Positions 13,242-35,800 of a stretch of DNA of 64,000 bases are shown in pieces; the stretch's first letter is position 1, and each line of letters starts with the position of its first letter. Below the pieces are notes generated by a model that ran no database searches, had not been told where the DNA came from, and worked only from the letters and a program-made list of their open reading frames with translations. Origin of the DNA: an uncultured Mycoplasmatota bacterium (GTDB lineage Bacteria > Bacillota_I > Bacilli_A > RF39 > UBA660); the NCBI GenBank assembly GCA_900553395.1, contig USDJ01000002.1:66525-130524 (forward strand). Reading direction: 5' to 3'. The position numbers were made by a program, and so were the translations under genes.

Positions 13242-13988
13242 TTATTTTATAGATATATCAAAGTATTTTGTTAAAAATGTACTTTCTGTTAAATATTTAC
13301 CATCAATAAAAAAAATATGTCTATAGTCTTTTTTCATATTATTCATATTATTAATTGTTTTTTCTTTCTTAAAATTAAACTTATTTAAATATCTTTCAAG
13401 TAAAAATTTATTAAATATTAAATCTTTTTGCTTATGTAGTTTACCTACAGACTGTAGTAAAAATAATAGTATTGAAATTACTACTTTATTTACATTAAAA
13501 AGTAAAAGTGCAAGTATTATAATCGCTATATAAGATAATATTACCGTAAGTATTAAACTTTTTTTAAAACTCGTTAATTTATTTAAAATTACATTTAAAA
13601 GTTTTGATCCATCTAAAGGATATATTGGTAACATATTAAATATAATTATAAAATAATTAATAAAAGAAAAATAGTCGTAGTTAATTTTACTGGATATAAT
13701 TTTAAAAAAAATAATTTGAAAAACAACACCTGCTATGCTCACAAAAAACTCTTCTATTAATGGCCTATTGATTAATTCATTAAACTTAGTAAGTCCACCA
13801 AAAGGCAATATTATTACTTTATCTATTTTCCATTCAAACATAAGCGCTACCGATATATGTCCTATTTCGTGAACTATTATTAATGTCATAAAATATAAGA
13901 TAAATTTAAATTTACCTATTAATGTAAAAATAAAAAGAACAATTAAAAAGAATGGATGAAAATATAATTTATTTAATATATTTTTCAT
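13242..13988 (-). CDS. spoIVFB: M50 family intramembrane metalloprotease, SpoIVFB-like
   Basis: HEIGH zinc motif inside a TM helix (LIIVHEIGHISVALMF) and LPFGG. The synteny spoIVFA-spoIVFB-rplU-prp-rpmA is the same as in B. subtilis. Confidence 0.55.
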   Translation of the reverse strand: MKNILNKLYFHPFFLIVLFIFTLIGKFKFILYFMTLIIVHEIGHISVALMFEWKIDKVIILPFGGLTKFNELINRPLIEEFFVSIAGVVFQIIFFKIISSKINYDYFSFINYFIIIFNMLPIYPLDGSKLLNVILNKLTSFKKSLILTVILSYIAIIILALLLFNVNKVVISILLFLLQSVGKLHKQKDLIFNKFLLERYLNKFNFKKEKTINNMNNMKKDYRHIFFIDGKYLTESTFLTKYFDISIK

Positions 13989-14517
13989 AGTCTAAAACAG
14001 TTCCATTCTTTTTATACACTAAATATAAGTTACCATTTACTTCCCCTAAGACAGTACCTTTCTCTACATAATCGTATAATTTTACATTAGGGTTTAGTAT
14101 ATTTCCATACCATTCATCTATACCATCTATTCTTTGAATTATCACTGTATTATTATATCCATCTTTATTACCTATAAAAACAACTATTCCACTTTCTAAT
14201 ACTGGCACTAAATAATTATTACCAACCTCAAGGCTAACACCATCTAAATATTTAGATGAACCTTTATATGTTAATTTTTCTTTAAATACAGTTTTGGTAT
14301 TAACAACGTTTTTTAATATATCAGAATTTCCAATATATTTATTATATAAATTATTTAAGTAAGCAAACTTGAAATTATTATCATAAACTTGTTCATAAAA
14401 TGATGTTTTAAATCCTGAGCTGGATTTTATTAATATAAGTATTATAAGAGTTATAATTATTGTTATAAATAATTTTGTTATAAAGATTGTCCTAGTATTG
14501 TTTTTCATATTATTCAC
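13969..14517 (-). CDS. spoIVFA: SpoIVFA-like membrane protein with a degenerate LytM/M23 domain
   Basis: N-terminal TM and a C-terminal LytM-like beta-rich domain (GVVVFIGNKDGYNNTVIIQ...G.VLGEV); located immediately upstream of the M50 protease. Confidence 0.4.
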   Translation of the reverse strand: MNNMKNNTRTIFITKLFITIIITLIILILIKSSSGFKTSFYEQVYDNNFKFAYLNNLYNKYIGNSDILKNVVNTKTVFKEKLTYKGSSKYLDGVSLEVGNNYLVPVLESGIVVFIGNKDGYNNTVIIQRIDGIDEWYGNILNPNVKLYDYVEKGTVLGEVNGNLYLVYKKNGTVLDYEKYIK

Positions 14518-28963: not shown

Positions 28964-31900
28964 TTAGTCCTCTAAAGCTTTATAATACTCATATCTTTCT
29001 TTAGCATTTTCTTTATTTTCTTTAAGTAATTCCCTAGCATTTTCTTTATTTACTTTAGGTAACATAGAATATCTAGTTTGACTATCTAAAAATTCATCAT
29101 ATAAATCAAAATCTACATTTTTACTATCAAGTTTAAATCCATCTTTAGGACTTCTTCTAAACGTTAGAAAATATCCACATTTAGTGGCAAGTTTTTCAAT
29201 GTTTATAGAGTTTCCCATACCACCTTTAATTCCGTGTGAAATACAAGGTGAGTAAGCTATTACTATGCTAGGTCCATTATGTAGACTTGCCTCTTTTAAT
29301 GCATTTATCACTTGCATCATATTAGATCCAAGTGAAACTTGGGCAACATATACATTTTTATAGCTCATAGCTATTCTTGCTAAATCTTTTTTAGCAGTAG
29401 TTTTTCCACTAGTAGCAAAAGAAGCTATTGAACCTATATCACTACTCTTACTTGCTTGACCTCCAGTATTAGAATAAACTTGGGTATCAAGTACTAATAT
29501 ATTTATGTTTTGATTACTTGCTAAAATATGATCTATTCCAGAAAATCCTATATCATAAGCCCATCCATCTCCACCTACTACCCAGTATGTTCTAGATGGA
29601 ATAAAGTCTTTTAAATCCTTTAATTCTTCTGGAATATTGTCATCTAAATTGTCATATACCTTTTTAGTTATCTCATAATCATCATAATTATCTAACCATT
29701 GCTTAAATAATAGAGAATTTGAATTATCCATATTTTGCTCCATTATATTTTTTATTTTTAATCTAATAAAATTATTAGCATTTAACATACCAAATCCATA
29801 TTCAGCATTATCTTCAAACAATGAGCTTGCCCAAGGAATACTATAAGGGGTTGAAGGAGCACTACCACCATATATAGAAGAACATCCTGTAGCGTTTGAT
29901 ATAAGAATATTATCTTTAAAAAGTTGAGTAAGAAGCTTAATATATGGAGTTTCTCCACATCCAGCACAAGCACCACAATATTTAAATCCTGGACTAATAA
30001 ATTGGCTTCCTTTTATAGAAAATTTATCAGTTAATTTTTTATCTTTGATATTTCTTTCCAAATACTCAAATATATTATTTTCTTCTTCTCTCAATTCTTT
30101 GCTTAGTGATTTAAAAGTTAAAGCCTTTTCACCTTTTAATCCAGGACAAGTATTTATGCAAAGTCCACAACCAGTACAATTATTAACAGATATACCAATA
30201 GTAAAATAATAGTCTTTATCTGCAATAGATTTTTTACATCTATTTTGAATAATACTTGGTGCATTATTATATTCATCTTCACTAAGTAAAAATGGTCTTA
30301 TAACAGAATGTGGACATACCATAGAACAGAAATTACAACTTATACAATTAGAATTTATATAAAACGGAACTATATCGCTTATAGAATTGCTCTCTAAAAT
30401 TGATGGTTTAAATACTCCACTTGGCATTTGTAAAAAGCTTGAAGTAGGTATATTATTTCCTTCTCTTTTAAACATTGCTTCATATAAATCATATTTATTA
30501 TCCTTAACTTCTTCTATAGATCTATAAATCTTCAACTCACGAATTAATTTTTCTGTCATATTAAGTGCTTCAATGTTAGCATTTACTATATCTTCTCCCT
30601 TTTTAGAGAATTTATCCTTTATATATTCAACTAATTTTTCATATGCTACTTTTGAATCTATAAGATTTGTTAAATATAATATAGCATACTCCATAATCAT
30701 ACTAATCTTTCCTGAAAGTCCTACCCTATCAGCTATAAGTGACGCATTCACTACATATAACTTTACATTTTTTTCTAATAAGAGATTGGTAAGCTTTGCA
30801 GAAAAACTATCTACAAGTTCTCTATCAGATTTATTGGAGTTTATAATTAATATAGAATTTTCTGATATATTATTAAGAAGCTCAAATGAACTAAAATAAC
30901 TATCCTTAGATACTACAACAATATCTGGATTCTCAACATAATAAGTAGATAAAATCTCTTTATCACTTATTCTTAAGTGTGAAACTGTTACTCCACCACT
31001 TTTCTTAGAATCATATTGAAAATAGCCTTGAACATAATTATTAGTATTATCTCCTATAAGTTTTATTATAGATTTTGATGCACTTACCATTCCATCTGAA
31101 CCATAACCATATATTAGTATTTCTTTACTATTTTTTATTTTTAATTCTTTTATAGGTAAGCTTAGATTTGTAACATCATCCGTTATACCTATAGTAAAGT
31201 TATTTACAGGATTATCTAGCATATCATATACAGCCTTTATCTGGCTTGGAGTAGTATTCTTGCTAGAAAGACCATATCTCCCACCTACTATACTGATGTT
31301 TTTATCTTTAAGCGCTGATAAAACGTCTAAATAAAGTGGCTCTCCTGGTGCTCCAAACTCTTTAGTTCTATCAAGTACAGCTATTTTAGTTGTGCTTAAT
31401 GGAAGTACATCTAATAAATATTTAGCACTAAAAGGTCTATATAAATGAACCTCAACTAAACCTAGTTCAGAATCAATATTATCTATAGTTTCTTTTATGG
31501 TACTACAAACAGATCCCATAGCAATTATTACTTTTTTAGCATTTTTACTTCCATAATAATTAAATGGTTTATAATTCATTCCTGTTATATGATTTATCTT
31601 TTCCATATAGTTATTTACTACATCTGGAACATTATCATAAAATTTATTTCTAACTTCAGTAGCCTGAAAATATACATCATCATTTTGAGCAGTTCCTCTT
31701 GTGTTAGGTTTAAGTGGATTCAAAGCATTATTTCTAAACTTACTTAAAGATTCTTTATTTATTAAATCTTTAATATCTGATTGTTCAAGAATCTTTATTT
31801 TATTTATCTCGTGACTTGTTCTAAATCCATCAAAAAAATGTAAAAAAGGTAAACTTAGATCAATCGCAGAAAGATGCGCTATAGCACTCATTATATTAGC

Positions 31901-32338
31901 ATCTTGTACACTAGAGGATGCTAAATAACAAAAACCAGTTTGTCTTGTAGCATATATATCTTGATGATCTCCAAAAATACTTAATGCGTGCGTAGATAGT
32001 GATCTGGCGGCAACATGCATAACACAGGGTAACATTTCACCTGCTATTTTATACATATTTGGAATCATAAGTAACAATCCTTGACTAGCTGTATAAGTAG
32101 TGGCAAGTGCTCCATTTTGTAAAGCACCGTGAACAAATCCAATAGCACCTGCTTCACTTTGCATTTCAACTACTTTAGCCTTTTCATTAAATATATTTAA
32201 GACTCCTTTTGAACTCCATTCGTCAATGTGCTCTGCCATTGGACTTGAAGGAGTTATCGGATAAATTCCGGCTAATTCAGTAAACATATAAGATGAAGCA
32301 GCACATGCTTCATTTCCATCCATAGTTTTTATTTTCAT
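28964..32338 (-). CDS. nifJ: Pyruvate:ferredoxin (flavodoxin) oxidoreductase, single-polypeptide PFOR
   Basis: 1124 aa; TPP-binding GGDGW and two ferredoxin-type CxxCxxCxxxCP motifs (CISCNFCSMVCP, CTGCGLCINTCP). Confidence 0.9.
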   Translation of the reverse strand: MKIKTMDGNEACAASSYMFTELAGIYPITPSSPMAEHIDEWSSKGVLNIFNEKAKVVEMQSEAGAIGFVHGALQNGALATTYTASQGLLLMIPNMYKIAGEMLPCVMHVAARSLSTHALSIFGDHQDIYATRQTGFCYLASSSVQDANIMSAIAHLSAIDLSLPFLHFFDGFRTSHEINKIKILEQSDIKDLINKESLSKFRNNALNPLKPNTRGTAQNDDVYFQATEVRNKFYDNVPDVVNNYMEKINHITGMNYKPFNYYGSKNAKKVIIAMGSVCSTIKETIDNIDSELGLVEVHLYRPFSAKYLLDVLPLSTTKIAVLDRTKEFGAPGEPLYLDVLSALKDKNISIVGGRYGLSSKNTTPSQIKAVYDMLDNPVNNFTIGITDDVTNLSLPIKELKIKNSKEILIYGYGSDGMVSASKSIIKLIGDNTNNYVQGYFQYDSKKSGGVTVSHLRISDKEILSTYYVENPDIVVVSKDSYFSSFELLNNISENSILIINSNKSDRELVDSFSAKLTNLLLEKNVKLYVVNASLIADRVGLSGKISMIMEYAILYLTNLIDSKVAYEKLVEYIKDKFSKKGEDIVNANIEALNMTEKLIRELKIYRSIEEVKDNKYDLYEAMFKREGNNIPTSSFLQMPSGVFKPSILESNSISDIVPFYINSNCISCNFCSMVCPHSVIRPFLLSEDEYNNAPSIIQNRCKKSIADKDYYFTIGISVNNCTGCGLCINTCPGLKGEKALTFKSLSKELREEENNIFEYLERNIKDKKLTDKFSIKGSQFISPGFKYCGACAGCGETPYIKLLTQLFKDNILISNATGCSSIYGGSAPSTPYSIPWASSLFEDNAEYGFGMLNANNFIRLKIKNIMEQNMDNSNSLLFKQWLDNYDDYEITKKVYDNLDDNIPEELKDLKDFIPSRTYWVVGGDGWAYDIGFSGIDHILASNQNINILVLDTQVYSNTGGQASKSSDIGSIASFATSGKTTAKKDLARIAMSYKNVYVAQVSLGSNMMQVINALKEASLHNGPSIVIAYSPCISHGIKGGMGNSINIEKLATKCGYFLTFRRSPKDGFKLDSKNVDFDLYDEFLDSQTRYSMLPKVNKENARELLKENKENAKERYEYYKALED

Positions 32339-32423
32339 AGTATCATCCCTTTAATAATATGGTATTAACATTATTTTAGCACATTTAAATTTATTAATCA
32401 AAATAAAATTTATAATTAACTAA

Positions 32424-32453
32424 GAACAAAAAAAAGATTATGGAAAATCTTTT
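32424..32453 (-). terminator. Rho-independent terminator immediately after the pilin-LRR gene stop
   Basis: aaaagatt-ttccat-aatctttt hairpin followed by eight T on the minus strand. Confidence 0.55.
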
Positions 32454-34162
32454 TAATTTTCAAATACTATATTTGAATCGCTATAGCCTGTGGCCCAACC
32501 AAATACATTAGTTCCAAAGCTAGTAAAATCAGATTTTGAACTTTTTCCTTTTATCACTACACTAGTAAGTTTATTTTTCAAAAATGCTTCTTTATCTATT
32601 GTTTTAACACTTGATGGAATTTCTACGCTTGTTAATTTATTGCTATAAAATGCATATTGACCTATTGTTGTTACACTAGATGGAATCGTTATACTTGACA
32701 ATTGATTATGTATAAATAAACTACTACTTATTGTAGTTAAACTAGATGGAATCGTTATACTTGTTAGTGAATTTTGATTAAATGCACCTTCACCTATACT
32801 AGTTATAGTATTAGGAAGTGTTATACTAGTTATACTATTTCTAGAAAAAGCATATGTACCTATTGTAGTAACATTACTAGGTAATGTTATATTACTTCTT
32901 TTTGCACCACCATAACTGACTATTGTTTTATTATCTATACTACCATCACTATTTCTCTTATATATAAAAGCCAAATCATCTGGTAATTTATTATTATTAA
33001 AAGATTCCTTTTCTATACTTGTTACACTAGATGCTATTTCTAAGCTTGTTAACTGATTATTTAGGAAAGATCCTCTTCCTATACTAGTAACTCCATTTTC
33101 AATTTTTAAGGTTTCTATTTTATTATTATAAAATGAATAATTAGAGATTTTTTTTATATTTCCTGGAATAGTTACACTTTTAAGCAAATTATCTGATAAA
33201 GCATATATACCCATACTAGTAACACTACTTGGTATTTCAATACTTGTTAATTTGTTATTTCTAAGCATATAAGAATTTATAATTTTTAAATTACTTGGTA
33301 AAGTTATACTAGTAAGATAGTTATTCAAAAATGCTTTACTACCAATATTAGTTATAGTATTAGGTAACTTTATACTTGTTATTTTTTGCGCTTCAAATGC
33401 ACTATTACTTATACTAACAACATTTTTATTATTAAACGTGCTAGGTATTATTACATCATAAAATTCTTTTGTTCCCGTATCTCCACACGTATATTTTACT
33501 ATTTCTATTCCAGCTTTAGTTTCTTTTACATCAAAGCATCTTCTTGGTGTATATATTTCTTCTGGATCTACTTCGTCTGCTATTAAATTTTCATTTTTAT
33601 CATTTATTGGTTTATATGTAACAGTGTATTCTTTACCACCTTTTTCCATAGATCCCTTTATCTTAGTATTATCAGGTTTATAGTATTTTACATCTGGAGA
33701 TTGTATTTCAAATTTTTCATCTATTCCAAATGTACCTTCGTATGTTAAAGAAGCCTCACCCAAATCTTTATTAGAGTATACATAATTTATAACCAGCTTA
33801 TACATATTCGTATACTCTTTTTTACCTATATATAAACTATATCCTTTAACTATACCGTTAACTATAGAAAGTCTTCCACTTTCTATCTTATTATCCTCAA
33901 TAGATACTTTCAGTTGTTCACCATCACAAATAATTATACTATTAGAACTTACTGTACAGCTTTCGGGATCGAATTCATCTTCTAAATTTTTATTCGCTAA
34001 AGTTTTTTCCACTGCATCTATATAAAATTCCACACTTCTTTGATTAGCTTGTTCATTAGAATTATTTATTATTCCTATAACAGCCGGAATAGTTATTAAA
34101 GCTATAATTGCTAATATTATTATTACAGCTAAAAGTTCTATTAAAGTAAATCCTCTTTTCAT
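32453..34162 (-). CDS. Prepilin-type N-terminal cleavage/methylation domain protein fused to a BspA-type leucine-rich repeat domain (pilin-LRR fusion)
   Basis: Class III signal peptide KRGFTLIELLAVIIILAIIALITIP (Gly-Phe cleavage site, Glu+5), a pilin-like head domain and about 12 BspA/LRR_5 repeats (LTSI.IPSSVTSIG..AF..N.). The C-terminal 30 aa are conserved with the paralog at 43403..44827. The GGTGG SD lies 5 nt before the ATG. Confidence 0.75.
   Translation of the reverse strand: MKRGFTLIELLAVIIILAIIALITIPAVIGIINNSNEQANQRSVEFYIDAVEKTLANKNLEDEFDPESCTVSSNSIIICDGEQLKVSIEDNKIESGRLSIVNGIVKGYSLYIGKKEYTNMYKLVINYVYSNKDLGEASLTYEGTFGIDEKFEIQSPDVKYYKPDNTKIKGSMEKGGKEYTVTYKPINDKNENLIADEVDPEEIYTPRRCFDVKETKAGIEIVKYTCGDTGTKEFYDVIIPSTFNNKNVVSISNSAFEAQKITSIKLPNTITNIGSKAFLNNYLTSITLPSNLKIINSYMLRNNKLTSIEIPSSVTSMGIYALSDNLLKSVTIPGNIKKISNYSFYNNKIETLKIENGVTSIGRGSFLNNQLTSLEIASSVTSIEKESFNNNKLPDDLAFIYKRNSDGSIDNKTIVSYGGAKRSNITLPSNVTTIGTYAFSRNSITSITLPNTITSIGEGAFNQNSLTSITIPSSLTTISSSLFIHNQLSSITIPSSVTTIGQYAFYSNKLTSVEIPSSVKTIDKEAFLKNKLTSVVIKGKSSKSDFTSFGTNVFGWATGYSDSNIVFEN
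32540..33410 (-). repeat. Internal tandem coding repeats (about 66-69 nt units) encoding the BspA-type LRR array
   Basis: Recurrent LTSI(E/T)IPSSVTSIG..AF units in the translation. Confidence 0.55.
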
Positions 34163-34220
34163 ATAACCACCATTCTATTAACTACTTCAGTATACAAAAA
34201 AGATTGGCCGAAGTCAATCA

Positions 34221-34979
34221 CTATCTTACTTTATGATAATCAAGTCTAAGCTTATCTGCAACTGTTACTATGAATTCTGAATTAGTTGGCTTAGCTCTAT
34301 CTATATCTACACTATTACCAAATATTTCTTCCATAAGATCCCAATTACCTCTGTTCCAACTAACTTCTATAGCATGTCTTATAGCTCTTTCAACTCTTGA
34401 CACAGTAGTATCAAATTTTGAAGCAAGTTCAGGATATAATTCTTTAGTTATTCCACCTATCATTTCAGGATTTTCAAATATCATATGCACTCCATCTCTT
34501 ATATATTGATATCCTTTTATATGTGAAGGTATTCCAAGTTCGTGTAATATCTTAGTTATTGATATCTGAAGATTATTATAGTGTAAATCTATATTTTTGC
34601 CTTCCTTTTTCTTGTTACACATATCAAGTATTCTTTTTTCTAAATCATCAAAATCAAAAGGTTTTAACAAATAATAATTTACTCCATAATCAGATACTTC
34701 TCTAATTACTTCTGCAGTATTATAGCTTGTAGCAACTATTACTTTTTTGTTTAAGTTTTTCTTTTTCATTTGCTCAAGTACATATAAACCATCTTTGTTT
34801 GGCATTATTAAATCTAATACTATTAAATCATAGTTTTCTTTTTCTACTGCTTCTATTCCTTCTAACCCATCGTGTGCTTCACTAGAAATAGTTATTAATT
34901 TACTACTTTTGAAATACTCTTTTACTGCTTCGATTAACTGCACATTGTCATCTATCATAAGAACTTTAATCTTGTCCAT
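34221..34979 (-). CDS. spo0A: Sporulation master response regulator Spo0A
   Basis: REC domain (D-D...D54-like LDLIMP...K) plus the Spo0A-specific C-terminal DNA-binding domain (TTVSRVERAIRHAIEVSWNRG...KPTNSEFI..VADKLRL). Confidence 0.9.
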   Translation of the reverse strand: MDKIKVLMIDDNVQLIEAVKEYFKSSKLITISSEAHDGLEGIEAVEKENYDLIVLDLIMPNKDGLYVLEQMKKKNLNKKVIVATSYNTAEVIREVSDYGVNYYLLKPFDFDDLEKRILDMCNKKKEGKNIDLHYNNLQISITKILHELGIPSHIKGYQYIRDGVHMIFENPEMIGGITKELYPELASKFDTTVSRVERAIRHAIEVSWNRGNWDLMEEIFGNSVDIDRAKPTNSEFIVTVADKLRLDYHKVR

Positions 34980-35061
34980 AATATACCTCTTTTCTATTAT
35001 TGATTATACTACATACAACTTAAAGCTTCTAGAGTTTATTTTATCTAGTTTTGTCACACTT

Positions 35062-35068
35062 TGTCGAA
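35062..35068 (+). promoter_or_regulatory. Candidate 0A box (TGTCGAA) in the spo0A upstream region
   Basis: Exact match to the Spo0A-binding consensus TGTCGAA, 83 nt upstream of the spo0A start and adjacent to TGTCACA. Confidence 0.3.
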
Positions 35069-35086
35069 TTATTTAGAATTATGCAA

Positions 35087-35800
35087 TCAAGAAATTTTAT
35101 CGATAATTTCTACAAATTGATTTGGATTTATACTTGCAGATCCAATTAAAAATCCATCTAATTCTTCTAATTTATTTAAAGCTAAAATATTTTTCTCATT
35201 TATACTACCACCATATAATACTTTAACATTTTGGTTATATAATTCAAATACTAATTCTTTTATATAATGTATAGTTTTTACTATTTCATTTAAATCTGGA
35301 ACATTATTAGTTCCAATAGCCCAAACAGGCTCATATGCTATTATTACGTTAGATAGTTCACTAACACCTACTAGTGCATCTCTTATTTGCCTTTTTATGA
35401 TAACATCCTTTTTTAATAAATTATATTCTTCTTTAGTTTCCCCAACGCATAATATAACTTTTAATTTATGCTTAAGACAAGTTTTGATCTTTTTATTTAT
35501 ATCTATATCAGTTTCTTTAAGCTTAATTCTTCTTTCACTATGGCCAACAATTGAATATTTTACTCCTATGCTAGCAAGTTGCAAGGCTGAAACTTCACCC
35601 GTAAAACCGCCATCTTCTGATGCGCAAACATTTTGACTGCCAACCTTAAAAGAATAGTTCAGAAAATAAGGAATATAAATATAACTTGGGCAAATTACTA
35701 AGTTTTTATTGTTTATTTCTTTAAATATATTTATATAATTTGCAATTTCACCAAATTGCATATTCATCTTTATATTTCCAACAATTAATTTATTCGCCAT
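35087..35800 (-). CDS. tpiA: Triosephosphate isomerase
   Basis: GNIKMN, VGHSERR and AYEPVWAIGT motifs. Confidence 0.85.
   Translation of the reverse strand: MANKLIVGNIKMNMQFGEIANYINIFKEINNKNLVICPSYIYIPYFLNYSFKVGSQNVCASEDGGFTGEVSALQLASIGVKYSIVGHSERRIKLKETDIDINKKIKTCLKHKLKVILCVGETKEEYNLLKKDVIIKRQIRDALVGVSELSNVIIAYEPVWAIGTNNVPDLNEIVKTIHYIKELVFELYNQNVKVLYGGSINEKNILALNKLEELDGFLIGSASINPNQFVEIIDKIS

What the first reader, a model, noticed from the sequence alone, without database searches (positions are those of the whole stretch)
32453..34162. Second pilin-LRR paralog sits 58 nt downstream of spo0A with only a weak hairpin between them
It has the same architecture as 43403..44827: KRGFTLIELL leader, about 12 LRR_5 repeats and the same C-terminal tail. 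It follows spo0A after a 58-nt spacer that contains only a 5-bp hairpin and no convincing -35 element. It ends in a strong terminator. This raises the possibility that this surface adhesin is co-transcribed with, or regulated by, the sporulation master regulator. The two paralogs have diverged (about 85 percent nucleotide identity at the conserved 3' end), so the duplication is old and maintained.
Basis: partly seen in the sequence, partly recalled or inferred. Interest (0 to 1): 0.55.

Follow-up and report, generated by a model that had tools for sequence, protein, structure and literature searches.

The report
Modular pilin-LRR adhesin gene beside spo0A
This gene from an uncultured gut bacterium (order RF39) encodes a type IV pilin head fused to a BspA-type leucine-rich-repeat adhesion domain, an architecture already catalogued, and its position next to the sporulation regulator spo0A looks incidental, not regulatory.

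Summary
ORF 32453..34162 (-) encodes 569 aa. It has a class III (prepilin) signal peptide MKRG|FTLIE, a pilin alpha1 helix with a small beta-sheet, an 80-residue insert, and about 12 LRR_5 repeats. It lies 58 nt after a genuine spo0A. A 474-aa paralog with the same architecture sits at 43403..44827.

- The spacer does hold a good sigma-A-type promoter, TTGACT-17-TATACT.
- The 5-bp hairpin plus T6 sits exactly where 61 of 80 related genomes carry a hairpin plus T-run after spo0A.
- The 3' "strong terminator" is an A/U-rich hairpin of about -5 kcal/mol.
- Paralog nucleotide identity is 77-83% only at the extreme ends, and about 68% over the 3' 660 nt.

The spo0A linkage is not conserved. tpiA-spo0A adjacency is conserved across the related RF39 genomes, but the gene downstream of spo0A varies. 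In two relatives PFOR follows spo0A directly. No 0A box lies in the spacer.

The architecture IPR012902-IPR026906 is already listed among the most frequent modular pilins (Raynaud 2021).

Verdict: an ordinary new member of a known kind. It is most likely a stand-alone gene for a pilus-displayed adhesin. Read-through from spo0A cannot be excluded without RNA data. The genes for the pilus assembly machinery were not found in the sequence available.

The parts
32453..34162 (-). Gene for a 569-aa modular type IV pilin with a BspA-type LRR module (the finding)
   Evidence: ORF. Pfam N_methyl plus LRR_5. The identical protein is found on 3 metagenome contigs. A 98% identical strain variant gives pN/pS 0.21.
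34091..34162 (-). Class III (prepilin) signal peptide, aa 1-24. Leader MKRG, predicted cleavage G4|F5, E at mature position 5, then a hydrophobic stretch.
   Evidence: Pfam N_methyl covers aa 2-24. F5, T6, L7, E9, L10 and L11 are invariant in 25 homologs. Mature residue 1 of solved pilins aligns to F5.
33803..34144 (-). Pilin module: alpha1 helix (aa 7-61) followed by six beta-strands (aa 68-120)
   Evidence: AlphaFold2 models: pLDDT 84 for the module alone and 75-81 for this part of the full model. A profile of the module hits 20 solved pilins or pseudopilins with E values down to 8e-11. Foldseek was not significant.
33563..33802 (-). Insert of about 80 residues (aa 121-200) that is absent from the paralog. 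Its fold is unknown.
   Evidence: It is a gap in the paralog alignment. pLDDT is below 50. There is no significant Pfam match; the best is Muc_B2 at E 0.22.
32456..33550 (-). BspA-type LRR (LRR_5) solenoid, aa 205-569. It has about 12 repeats of 22 aa plus a conserved C-terminal cap.
   Evidence: Pfam LRR_5 E 2.7e-78. pLDDT is mostly above 90. Foldseek matches 4gt6 (E 2e-11), 4fs7, PcpA 4cp6, 4h09 and TpLRR 6mlx. phmmer matches 4fs7 at 6e-30.
34189..34217 (-). Sigma-A-type promoter-like site TTGACT-17-TATACT. The -10 ends 26 nt before the ATG.
   Evidence: Consensus scan, 10 of 12. It is identical in strain L088. The paralog has the same design, TTGACT-17-TAAAAT at 44887..44859. Matches of at least 10/12 are 2.7 times denser in intergenic DNA. 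Function is inferred, not shown.
34196..34219 (-). Hairpin GATTGAC-UUCG-GCCAATC plus T6. This is the likely, but weak, intrinsic terminator of spo0A. Its 5' arm overlaps the -35 hexamer.
   Evidence: Sequence. Energy -2.5 to -3.7 kcal/mol. A hairpin plus T-run lies at the same position in 61 of 80 relatives, against 11% of random 85-mers.
34167..34171 (-). Ribosome-binding site GGTGG, 4 nt before the ATG
   Evidence: Read from the sequence.
32428..32454 (-). A/U-rich 9-bp hairpin plus T-run after the stop codon. It is a plausible, modest terminator.
   Evidence: Fold energy -5.6 kcal/mol, z -1.24. In strain L088 only the loop differs. The consensus scan did not call it.
34221..34979 (-). spo0A (252 aa), the upstream neighbour
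   Evidence: Pfam Response_reg plus Spo0A_C. It is 68-91% identical to Spo0A in 80 related genomes.
43403..44827 (-). Paralog (474 aa) with the same architecture. This is the more widely conserved copy.
   Evidence: Pfam. BLASTP. It has a graded series of orthologs at 97, 92, 66 and 61% identity, of 392-471 aa.
39306..40370 (-). Third pilin-like gene (N_methyl only), lying between nrnA and pgk. It occupies the same position in most relatives.
   Evidence: Pfam. Gene call of 354 aa. Pilin-like ORFs peak 5-8 kb upstream of spo0A in the related loci.

Best explanation
The gene encodes a modular type IV pilin. A prepilin peptidase would cleave the four-residue leader after Gly4. The hydrophobic alpha1 helix with its small beta-sheet 'pilin module' would then insert into a type IV filament, probably as a low-abundance, tip-located subunit. 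That would present the bulky C-terminal BspA-type LRR solenoid outside the cell as an adhesion or ligand-binding module.

The gene is a stand-alone transcription unit. It has its own sigma-A-type promoter (TTGACT-17-TATACT), a ribosome-binding site and a 3' hairpin. It sits in a variable slot between spo0A and the PFOR gene (pyruvate:ferredoxin oxidoreductase). The short hairpin plus T6 in the spacer is the 3' end of spo0A. The adjacency to spo0A is therefore positional, not regulatory.

Shown here: the domain architecture, the predicted folds, purifying selection, the variable synteny, and a terminator-like element in the same position in relatives. Inferred: promoter use, terminator efficiency, cleavage, incorporation into a filament, and adhesion.
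For: Architecture:
- Pfam N_methyl plus LRR_5.
- F5, T6, L7 and E9 are invariant across 25 homologs.
- A profile of the N-terminal module hits 20 solved pilins with E values down to 8e-11, with mature residue 1 aligned to F5.
- AlphaFold2 gives a helix at aa 7-61, six strands, then an LRR solenoid with pLDDT above 90.
- The solenoid matches BspA-like surface proteins and the pneumococcal adhesin PcpA.
- The same architecture, IPR012902-IPR026906, is among the 15 most frequent modular pilins in Raynaud 2021. IPR026906 is the BspA-type LRR region.

The gene is functional:
- pN/pS is 0.21 between two strains.
- The identical protein occurs on 3 contigs.

Independent unit:
- A 10/12 promoter-like site and a hairpin plus T6 lie in the spacer.
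- The paralog has the same layout of terminator, TTGACT-17-TAAAAT and ribosome-binding site.
- A hairpin plus T-run follows spo0A in 61 of 80 relatives, against 89 of 800 random segments.
- In relatives where a pilin gene follows spo0A, each has its own 9-11/12 promoter-like site.

Incidental linkage:
- tpiA-spo0A adjacency is conserved, but the downstream gene varies.
- PFOR follows spo0A directly in L008 and L013.
- Homologs P0004, P0070 and P0046 lie among unrelated housekeeping genes.
- No TGNCGAA lies in the spacer.
Against: - The hairpin after spo0A is weak (-2.5 to -3.7 kcal/mol). It is among the weaker ones in the 80 relatives. The whole spacer folds no better than shuffled sequence (z -0.04). 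Some read-through is therefore plausible.
- Promoter-like matches are not rarer in shuffles of this A+T-rich region: 16 found against 22 expected.
- No PilB, PilC or PilD genes were found in about 84 kb of this scaffold. A motif search of 1.4 Mb of related loci also found none. Assembly into a filament is therefore unverified.
- Foldseek did not significantly match the pilin module to solved pilins. The best pilin hit was PilW 8dx4 at E 0.17.
- Pilin-type genes are about five times enriched 0-2 kb downstream of spo0A, in 12 of 70 species. This is not explained by pure chance.
Confidence: 0.6

Rival explanations
1. Bicistronic spo0A-pilin expression. The weak hairpin lets transcripts from the spo0A promoter run into the pilin gene, so the adhesin is made when spo0A is induced, that is, coupled to sporulation.
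For: - The two genes are on the same strand with a 58-nt spacer and only a 5-bp hairpin of -2.5 to -3.7 kcal/mol.
- A perfect 0A box lies in the spo0A promoter region at 35062..35068, which suggests autoregulated spo0A transcription.
- Pilin-type genes lie within 3 kb downstream of spo0A in 12 of 70 relatives, about five times the background density.
Against: - The spacer has its own 10/12 promoter-like site.
- A hairpin plus T-run at this position is the rule in relatives, whatever gene follows.
- The LRR pilin is next to spo0A in this species only.
- No 0A box lies in the spacer.
- In relatives with a pilin gene after spo0A, the hairpins are stronger (-6 to -9 kcal/mol) and separate promoter-like sites are present.
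Confidence: 0.2
2. The pilin-like N-terminus serves only as a cleavable membrane anchor or export signal. The LRR domain is displayed on the cell surface, and the protein is not polymerised into a pilus.
For: - No filament-assembly genes were found in about 84 kb around the gene or in 1.4 Mb of related loci.
- These genes are scattered singly among housekeeping genes.
- The mature protein is large (about 62 kDa) and carries an extra insert.
Against: - Glu at mature position 5 and the whole alpha1 helix plus beta-sheet module are conserved across the family. A plain anchor would not need them.
- Relatives keep a pilin gene of typical major-pilin size (120-140 aa) in a conserved position.
- Large modular pilins are known to be incorporated into pili in Streptococcus sanguinis (PMC8179133).
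- Most of the genome was not available for search.
Confidence: 0.2

Closest known systems
Modular type IV pilins of Streptococcus sanguinis (PilB with a vWA module, PilC with a lectin module; Raynaud et al. 2021, PMC8179133)
   Same: Both have a short class III signal peptide and a small pilin module with a bulky, non-pilus-specific binding domain grafted at the C-terminus. Both come from single-membrane (monoderm) Bacillota. The predicted role is filament-displayed adhesion.
   Different: The module here is a BspA-type LRR solenoid instead of a vWA or lectin domain. This copy has an extra 80-residue insert between the modules. The gene is an orphan and is not in a pil locus. No assembly or binding data exist.
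The IPR012902-IPR026906 (N-methylation site plus BspA-type LRR) architecture in Raynaud 2021, Dataset S1
   Same: It is the same domain architecture. The dataset lists 18 proteins with one LRR region and 6 with two, and the architecture is among the 15 most frequent. Dozens of the 120 best database hits carry both Pfam domains.
   Different: Those entries were only catalogued ('no clear function'). None was studied, and the RF39 lineage was not discussed.
BspA-like LRR_5 surface proteins: Tannerella forsythia BspA, pneumococcal PcpA (4cp6), Treponema pallidum TpLRR (6mlx), and gut-bacterial structures 4gt6, 4fs7 and 4h09
   Same: The C-terminal 365 residues match this repeat family in sequence and predicted fold. 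From general knowledge, BspA and PcpA are adhesins.
   Different: Those proteins are exported and anchored by signal peptides, choline-binding repeats, lipid or type IX secretion tails. Here the carrier is a pilin module.
Thermus thermophilus ComZ (a pilin with a beta-solenoid module)
   Same: It is a pilin carrying a solenoid-type extra module. Raynaud 2021 cites it as a modular pilin.
   Different: The ComZ module is linked to DNA uptake and is not an LRR_5 domain. No sequence relationship was tested here.

Membership tests
Type IV pilin (type IV filament subunit) | Class III signal peptide: a short hydrophilic leader ending in Gly, then Phe or Met, Glu at mature position 5, and about 20 hydrophobic residues | tested here: met
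   The sequence is MKRG|FTLIELLAVIIILAIIALITIP. Pfam N_methyl scores 25.3 bits against a cut-off of 21.2. F5, T6, L7 and E9 are invariant in 25 homologs.
Type IV pilin (type IV filament subunit) | A long N-terminal alpha1 helix (about 50 residues) homologous to that of solved pilins | tested here: met
   AlphaFold2 predicts a helix at aa 7-61. A profile search hits 20 solved pilins or pseudopilins with E values from 8e-11 to 8e-4, with mature residue 1 aligned to F5. The single sequence hits PilE1 8pfb at E 6.5e-4.
Type IV pilin (type IV filament subunit) | A globular head made of an antiparallel beta-sheet packed on alpha1 (the pilin fold) | tested here: inconclusive
Type IV pilin (type IV filament subunit) | The genome encodes a prepilin peptidase, an assembly ATPase and a platform protein, and the protein is processed and polymerised | not testable with these tools
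   No such genes lie in about 84 kb of the scaffold. A motif scan of 1.4 Mb of related loci found none. The rest of the genome could not be reached.
Modular pilin (sensu Raynaud et al. 2021) | An N-terminal pilin module plus an extra domain that is not specific to pilus biology | tested here: met
   N_methyl plus LRR_5. The architecture is listed in their Dataset S1.
Modular pilin (sensu Raynaud et al. 2021) | The extra module has a direct role in a filament-mediated function such as adhesion | not testable with these tools
   This needs binding or localisation experiments.
BspA-type LRR (Pfam LRR_5, PF13306) | A sequence match above the curated cut-off, and a solenoid fold like the solved members | tested here: met
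   260.5 bits against a cut-off of 27.7. Foldseek matches 4gt6 at E 2e-11, 4fs7 at 5e-10 and 4cp6 at 1.5e-8.
spo0A operon / Spo0A regulon member | No terminator or promoter between spo0A and the gene (co-transcription) | tested here: not met
   The spacer holds a hairpin plus T6 and TTGACT-17-TATACT. Both are predictions from sequence. Transcripts were not examined.
spo0A operon / Spo0A regulon member | A 0A box (TGNCGAA) in the promoter region | tested here: not met
   None of the 13 matches in the window lies in 34163..34220. There is only a one-mismatch GGCCGAA at 34206..34212.
spo0A operon / Spo0A regulon member | Linkage to spo0A conserved in related genomes | tested here: not met
   The LRR pilin directly follows spo0A only in this species. 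Six of the related loci, counting this one, have some pilin-type gene directly downstream, and 12 of 70 have one within 3 kb. The rest have unrelated genes.

The most novel reading that the evidence does not exclude
The reduced-genome, uncultured gut order RF39 may rely on an expanded family of orphan modular pilins as its main surface-adhesin repertoire. These share one conserved pilin head fused to LRR_5, DUF6273, dockerin, DUF285 or unknown domains. The modules may be exchanged by recombination between paralogs. The slot just downstream of spo0A may be a preferred landing or diversification site. In this species the weak terminator might let part of the expression follow spo0A.
Probability: 0.2. 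Interest if true: 0.5.

Novelty: new member of a known kind. Interest (0 to 1): 0.25.

Why it matters
RF39 bacteria are common in the human gut but uncultured, and how they attach to host or partner surfaces is unknown. This gene family gives concrete candidates: pilus-presented BspA-like LRR adhesins. For genome annotation, the case shows that a short spacer after a master regulator does not imply an operon in A+T-rich genomes, where terminators are weak-looking and can overlap the next promoter. The specific gene is not surprising, because the architecture is already catalogued.

Tried and rejected
- Known RNA element in the spacer: Rfam at E up to 1 over 32000..35400 found nothing.
- Spo0A binding site upstream of the pilin gene: no TGNCGAA in the spacer. 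A perfect box at 40341..40347 is just the codons for L-V-E of the pilin motif in the third pilin gene.
- Recent horizontal transfer: G+C is flat at 25-30% across 28-46 kb.
- Recent repeat expansion or a slippage tract: TRF finds only one 66-nt, 2.4-copy array at 72% identity. There are no A, T, G or C runs of 9 or more in the gene.
- Identity of the 80-residue insert: Pfam at E up to 10 gave only Muc_B2 at E 0.22 and PMBR at E 0.1, neither significant. AlphaFold2 confidence is below 50.
- Pilus machinery: Pfam tables for about 84 kb of the scaffold, a Walker-A and peptidase-A24 motif scan of all held loci, and a Pfam scan of the pilin cluster in L030 all found none.
- Literature on RF39 pili: nothing relevant was found.
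Full report
**What is there**

The minus strand carries, in order, tpiA (35087..35800), spo0A (34221..34979), the ORF of the finding (32453..34162, 569 aa) and a PFOR gene for pyruvate:ferredoxin oxidoreductase (28964..32338).
- The spo0A product has Response_reg and Spo0A_C domains (E 9e-41), so it is a real Spo0A.
- The finding's protein matches Pfam N_methyl (25.3 bits, cut-off 21.2) and LRR_5 (260.5 bits, cut-off 27.7).
- The ORF at 43403..44827 (474 aa) has the same two domains and the same C-terminal tail. BLASTP gives 47% identity over the LRR part and a well-aligned N-terminus.
- The spacer between spo0A and the pilin gene is 58 nt.

**Corrections to the observation**

- The spacer reads TAG-tGATTGACTTCGGCCAATCTTTTTTGTATACTGAAGTAGTTAATAGAATGGTGGTTAT-ATG.
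- It contains TTGACT, 17 nt, TATACT, a 10 of 12 match to the sigma-70-type consensus. The consensus scan lists it. The statement 'no convincing -35' is therefore wrong.
It has 5 pairs, or 7 with an A·C mismatch and a UUCG loop, at -2.5 to -3.7 kcal/mol. It is followed by six T.
- The 3' 'strong terminator' is a 9-bp hairpin made almost entirely of A-U pairs, at -5.1 to -5.6 kcal/mol with z -1.2. That is plausible for a genome with 27% G+C, but it is not strong.
- Paralog nucleotide identity is 83% over the first 26 codons and 77% over the last 30, 51-72% elsewhere, and 68% over the 3' 662 nt.
- This copy also has an 80-residue insert (aa 121-200) and one more repeat than the paralog.

**Where it comes from**

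- The identical protein lies on a 155-kb scaffold of a human gut metagenome.
- Spo0A is 68-91% identical in 80 species-level genomes labelled as uncultured Bacilli or 'Tenericutes'. One of these loci comes from a circular 1.2-Mb contig. The set also includes Candidatus Coprosoma and Candidatus Faecimonas.
- Gilroy et al. place those two genera in GTDB order RF39 (PMC8035907).
- RF39 is predicted to retain spo0A and to be able to sporulate (PMC10868615).

**Is the spo0A linkage meaningful?**

- tpiA lies about 0.8 kb upstream of spo0A in most of the 80 loci.
- The gene downstream of spo0A differs in almost every species. It is fmt, a DnaD-like gene, recA, an AAA protein, phosphoglycerate mutase and others.
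- In L008 and L013, PFOR follows spo0A directly. In L003, L004 and L011 it lies 1.4-4.7 kb away with other genes in between. The pilin-LRR gene therefore occupies a variable slot between spo0A and PFOR.
- I scanned the 85 nt around the spo0A stop codon for a hairpin of at least 5 bp followed by a T-run. This was found in 61 of 80 loci, against 89 of 800 random 85-mers. At -5 kcal/mol or stronger the counts are 48 of 80 against 25 of 800 (sequences). A terminator directly after spo0A is therefore the rule in this lineage, whatever gene follows. The window's hairpin sits at that place but is one of the weaker ones.
- The paralog at 43403..44827 has the same upstream layout: a hairpin plus T-run after the preceding gene, TTGACT-17-TAAAAT, then a ribosome-binding site.
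- In the relatives where a pilin-type gene follows spo0A, each spacer has its own promoter-like site matching 9-11 of 12 positions. In L015 the -35 hexamer is again embedded in the terminator hairpin and the -10 hexamer follows the T-run.
- Promoter-like matches of at least 10/12 are 2.7 times denser in intergenic than in coding DNA of the window. A single match is not significant on its own, because the scan found 16 against 22 expected in shuffles.
- No TGNCGAA 0A box lies in the spacer. The only perfect TGTCGAA nearby sits in the spo0A promoter region.
- Other pilin-LRR homologs lie between unrelated housekeeping genes: adh_short and sigA, uppS and ispH, gltX and rpsB.
- Together these results argue for a stand-alone gene whose position next to spo0A is incidental.
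- One caveat remains. Pilin-type ORFs are about five times enriched 0-2 kb downstream of spo0A, in 12 of 70 loci from several clades and with different C-terminal modules. I read this as an accessory surface-protein slot. An ancestral pilin gene at this site is also possible.

**What the protein is**

- Across 25 homologs, F5, T6, L7, E9, L10 and L11 are invariant. The consensus begins KGFTLIELLAVIVILAIIALIATP.
- A profile of the first 122 residues hits 20 solved type IV pilins and pseudopilins with E values from 8e-11 to 8e-4. Their mature residue 1 aligns to F5, which fits cleavage after G4. The single sequence hits S. sanguinis PilE1.
- AlphaFold2 gives a helix at aa 7-61, six strands at aa 68-120 (pLDDT 84 for the module alone), a low-confidence insert at aa 121-200, and a solenoid from aa 205 to the end with pLDDT mostly above 90.
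- The solenoid matches BspA-like LRR surface proteins of gut bacteria (4gt6 at E 2e-11, 4fs7, 4h09), the pneumococcal adhesin PcpA and TpLRR.
- Two strains differ by 27 nt in the gene with pN/pS 0.21, so the gene is under purifying selection.

**Comparison with what is known**

- Raynaud et al. defined modular pilins as a pilin module with a grafted functional domain. They showed that S. sanguinis PilB uses its vWA module for adhesion (PMC8179133).
- Their Dataset S1 lists IPR012902-IPR026906 with 18 proteins, and a two-copy version with 6. The architecture is among the 15 most frequent and is marked as having no clear function. IPR026906 is the BspA-type LRR region.
- In the database search here, dozens of the 120 best hits carry both Pfam domains.
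- The finding is therefore a new member of a known, catalogued but unstudied architecture.
- In RF39 relatives the same pilin head is also fused to DUF6273, Dockerin_1, DUF285 and unrecognised domains.
- The paralog at 43403..44827 has a graded ortholog series at 97, 92, 66 and 61% identity, with lengths of 392-471 aa. The finding's copy has only a 98% strain variant, and its next relatives are the paralog-type proteins at about 50%. The copy beside spo0A therefore looks like an old, lineage-restricted duplicate.

**What could not be settled**

- No prepilin peptidase, assembly ATPase or platform protein gene was found in about 84 kb of the scaffold or in the related loci held.
- The rest of the genome was out of reach, so assembly into a filament is inferred from conservation of the pilin module.
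- Promoter use and terminator efficiency are predictions from sequence. Only transcript mapping can exclude partial read-through from spo0A.

**Verdict**

- The regulatory interpretation is not supported. The 'old, maintained paralog' and 'surface adhesin' parts are supported.
- Novelty: a new member of a known kind.
- Interest: low to moderate.

Noticed in passing
window 35038..35068: A perfect 0A box TGTCGAA lies at 35062..35068 on the + strand. It overlaps the -35-like hexamer of the promoter-like site upstream of spo0A (TCGACA-18-TAAAAT). This fits Spo0A autoregulation. Only 3 perfect boxes occur in the 64-kb window, against 2.1 expected by chance.
   Followed up: partly
window 13242..14517 and downstream: Peptidase_M23 and Peptidase_M50 genes lie directly upstream of rplU, prp and rpmA. 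From general knowledge, this is the arrangement of spoIVFA-spoIVFB-rplU-ysxB-rpmA in Bacillus subtilis. It suggests that this small-genome RF39 organism keeps late sporulation genes.
   Followed up: no
window 35087..35800 with 34221..34979; loci L002-L081: tpiA lies about 0.8 kb upstream of spo0A in most of the 80 related genomes. This is a conserved glycolysis-gene/spo0A neighbourhood. From general knowledge, it differs from the usual spoIVB-spo0A arrangement of Bacilli and Clostridia.
   Followed up: partly
window 39306..40370; related loci 5-8 kb upstream of spo0A: A third pilin-like gene between nrnA and pgk occupies the same position in most relatives. Its size ranges from 120-140 aa (typical of a major pilin) to more than 500 aa.
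   Followed up: partly
L015 10831..16325; L003 10865..12205; L018 4825..5925; L012 1108..2796: In relatives the same conserved pilin head is fused to Dockerin_1, DUF6273, DUF285 plus LRR, LRR_5 or unrecognised domains. L015 carries at least three such genes in the 6 kb after spo0A.
   Followed up: partly
loci L001-L081, 0-2 kb downstream of spo0A: Pilin-type ORFs are about five times denser here than elsewhere in the loci (0.10 against about 0.02 per locus-kb, in 12 of 70 loci). The C-terminal modules differ between loci. This is unexplained: it could be an accessory-gene slot or an ancestral pilin site.
   Followed up: partly
L051 10896..10905: A G10 run lies in the leader between a promoter-like site and a pilin gene, in a lineage whose DNA is very A+T-rich (27% G+C in this window). 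It is followed by CCCC and a T-run. It may be a slippage-prone tract or simply part of a hairpin.
   Followed up: no
L084 17459..18895 (about 7.5 kb beyond window position 1); L092 15082..16416: A 478-aa protein with SpaA and a weak TED match, and a 444-aa relative in another species, point to sortase-type pilus or adhesin subunits in addition to the type IV pilin family.
   Followed up: no
P0018, P0014, P0046-P0054, P0048 compared with window 43403..44827: Orthologs of the paralog range from 392 to 471 aa at 60-97% identity. This indicates that the LRR repeat number varies between species.
   Followed up: no
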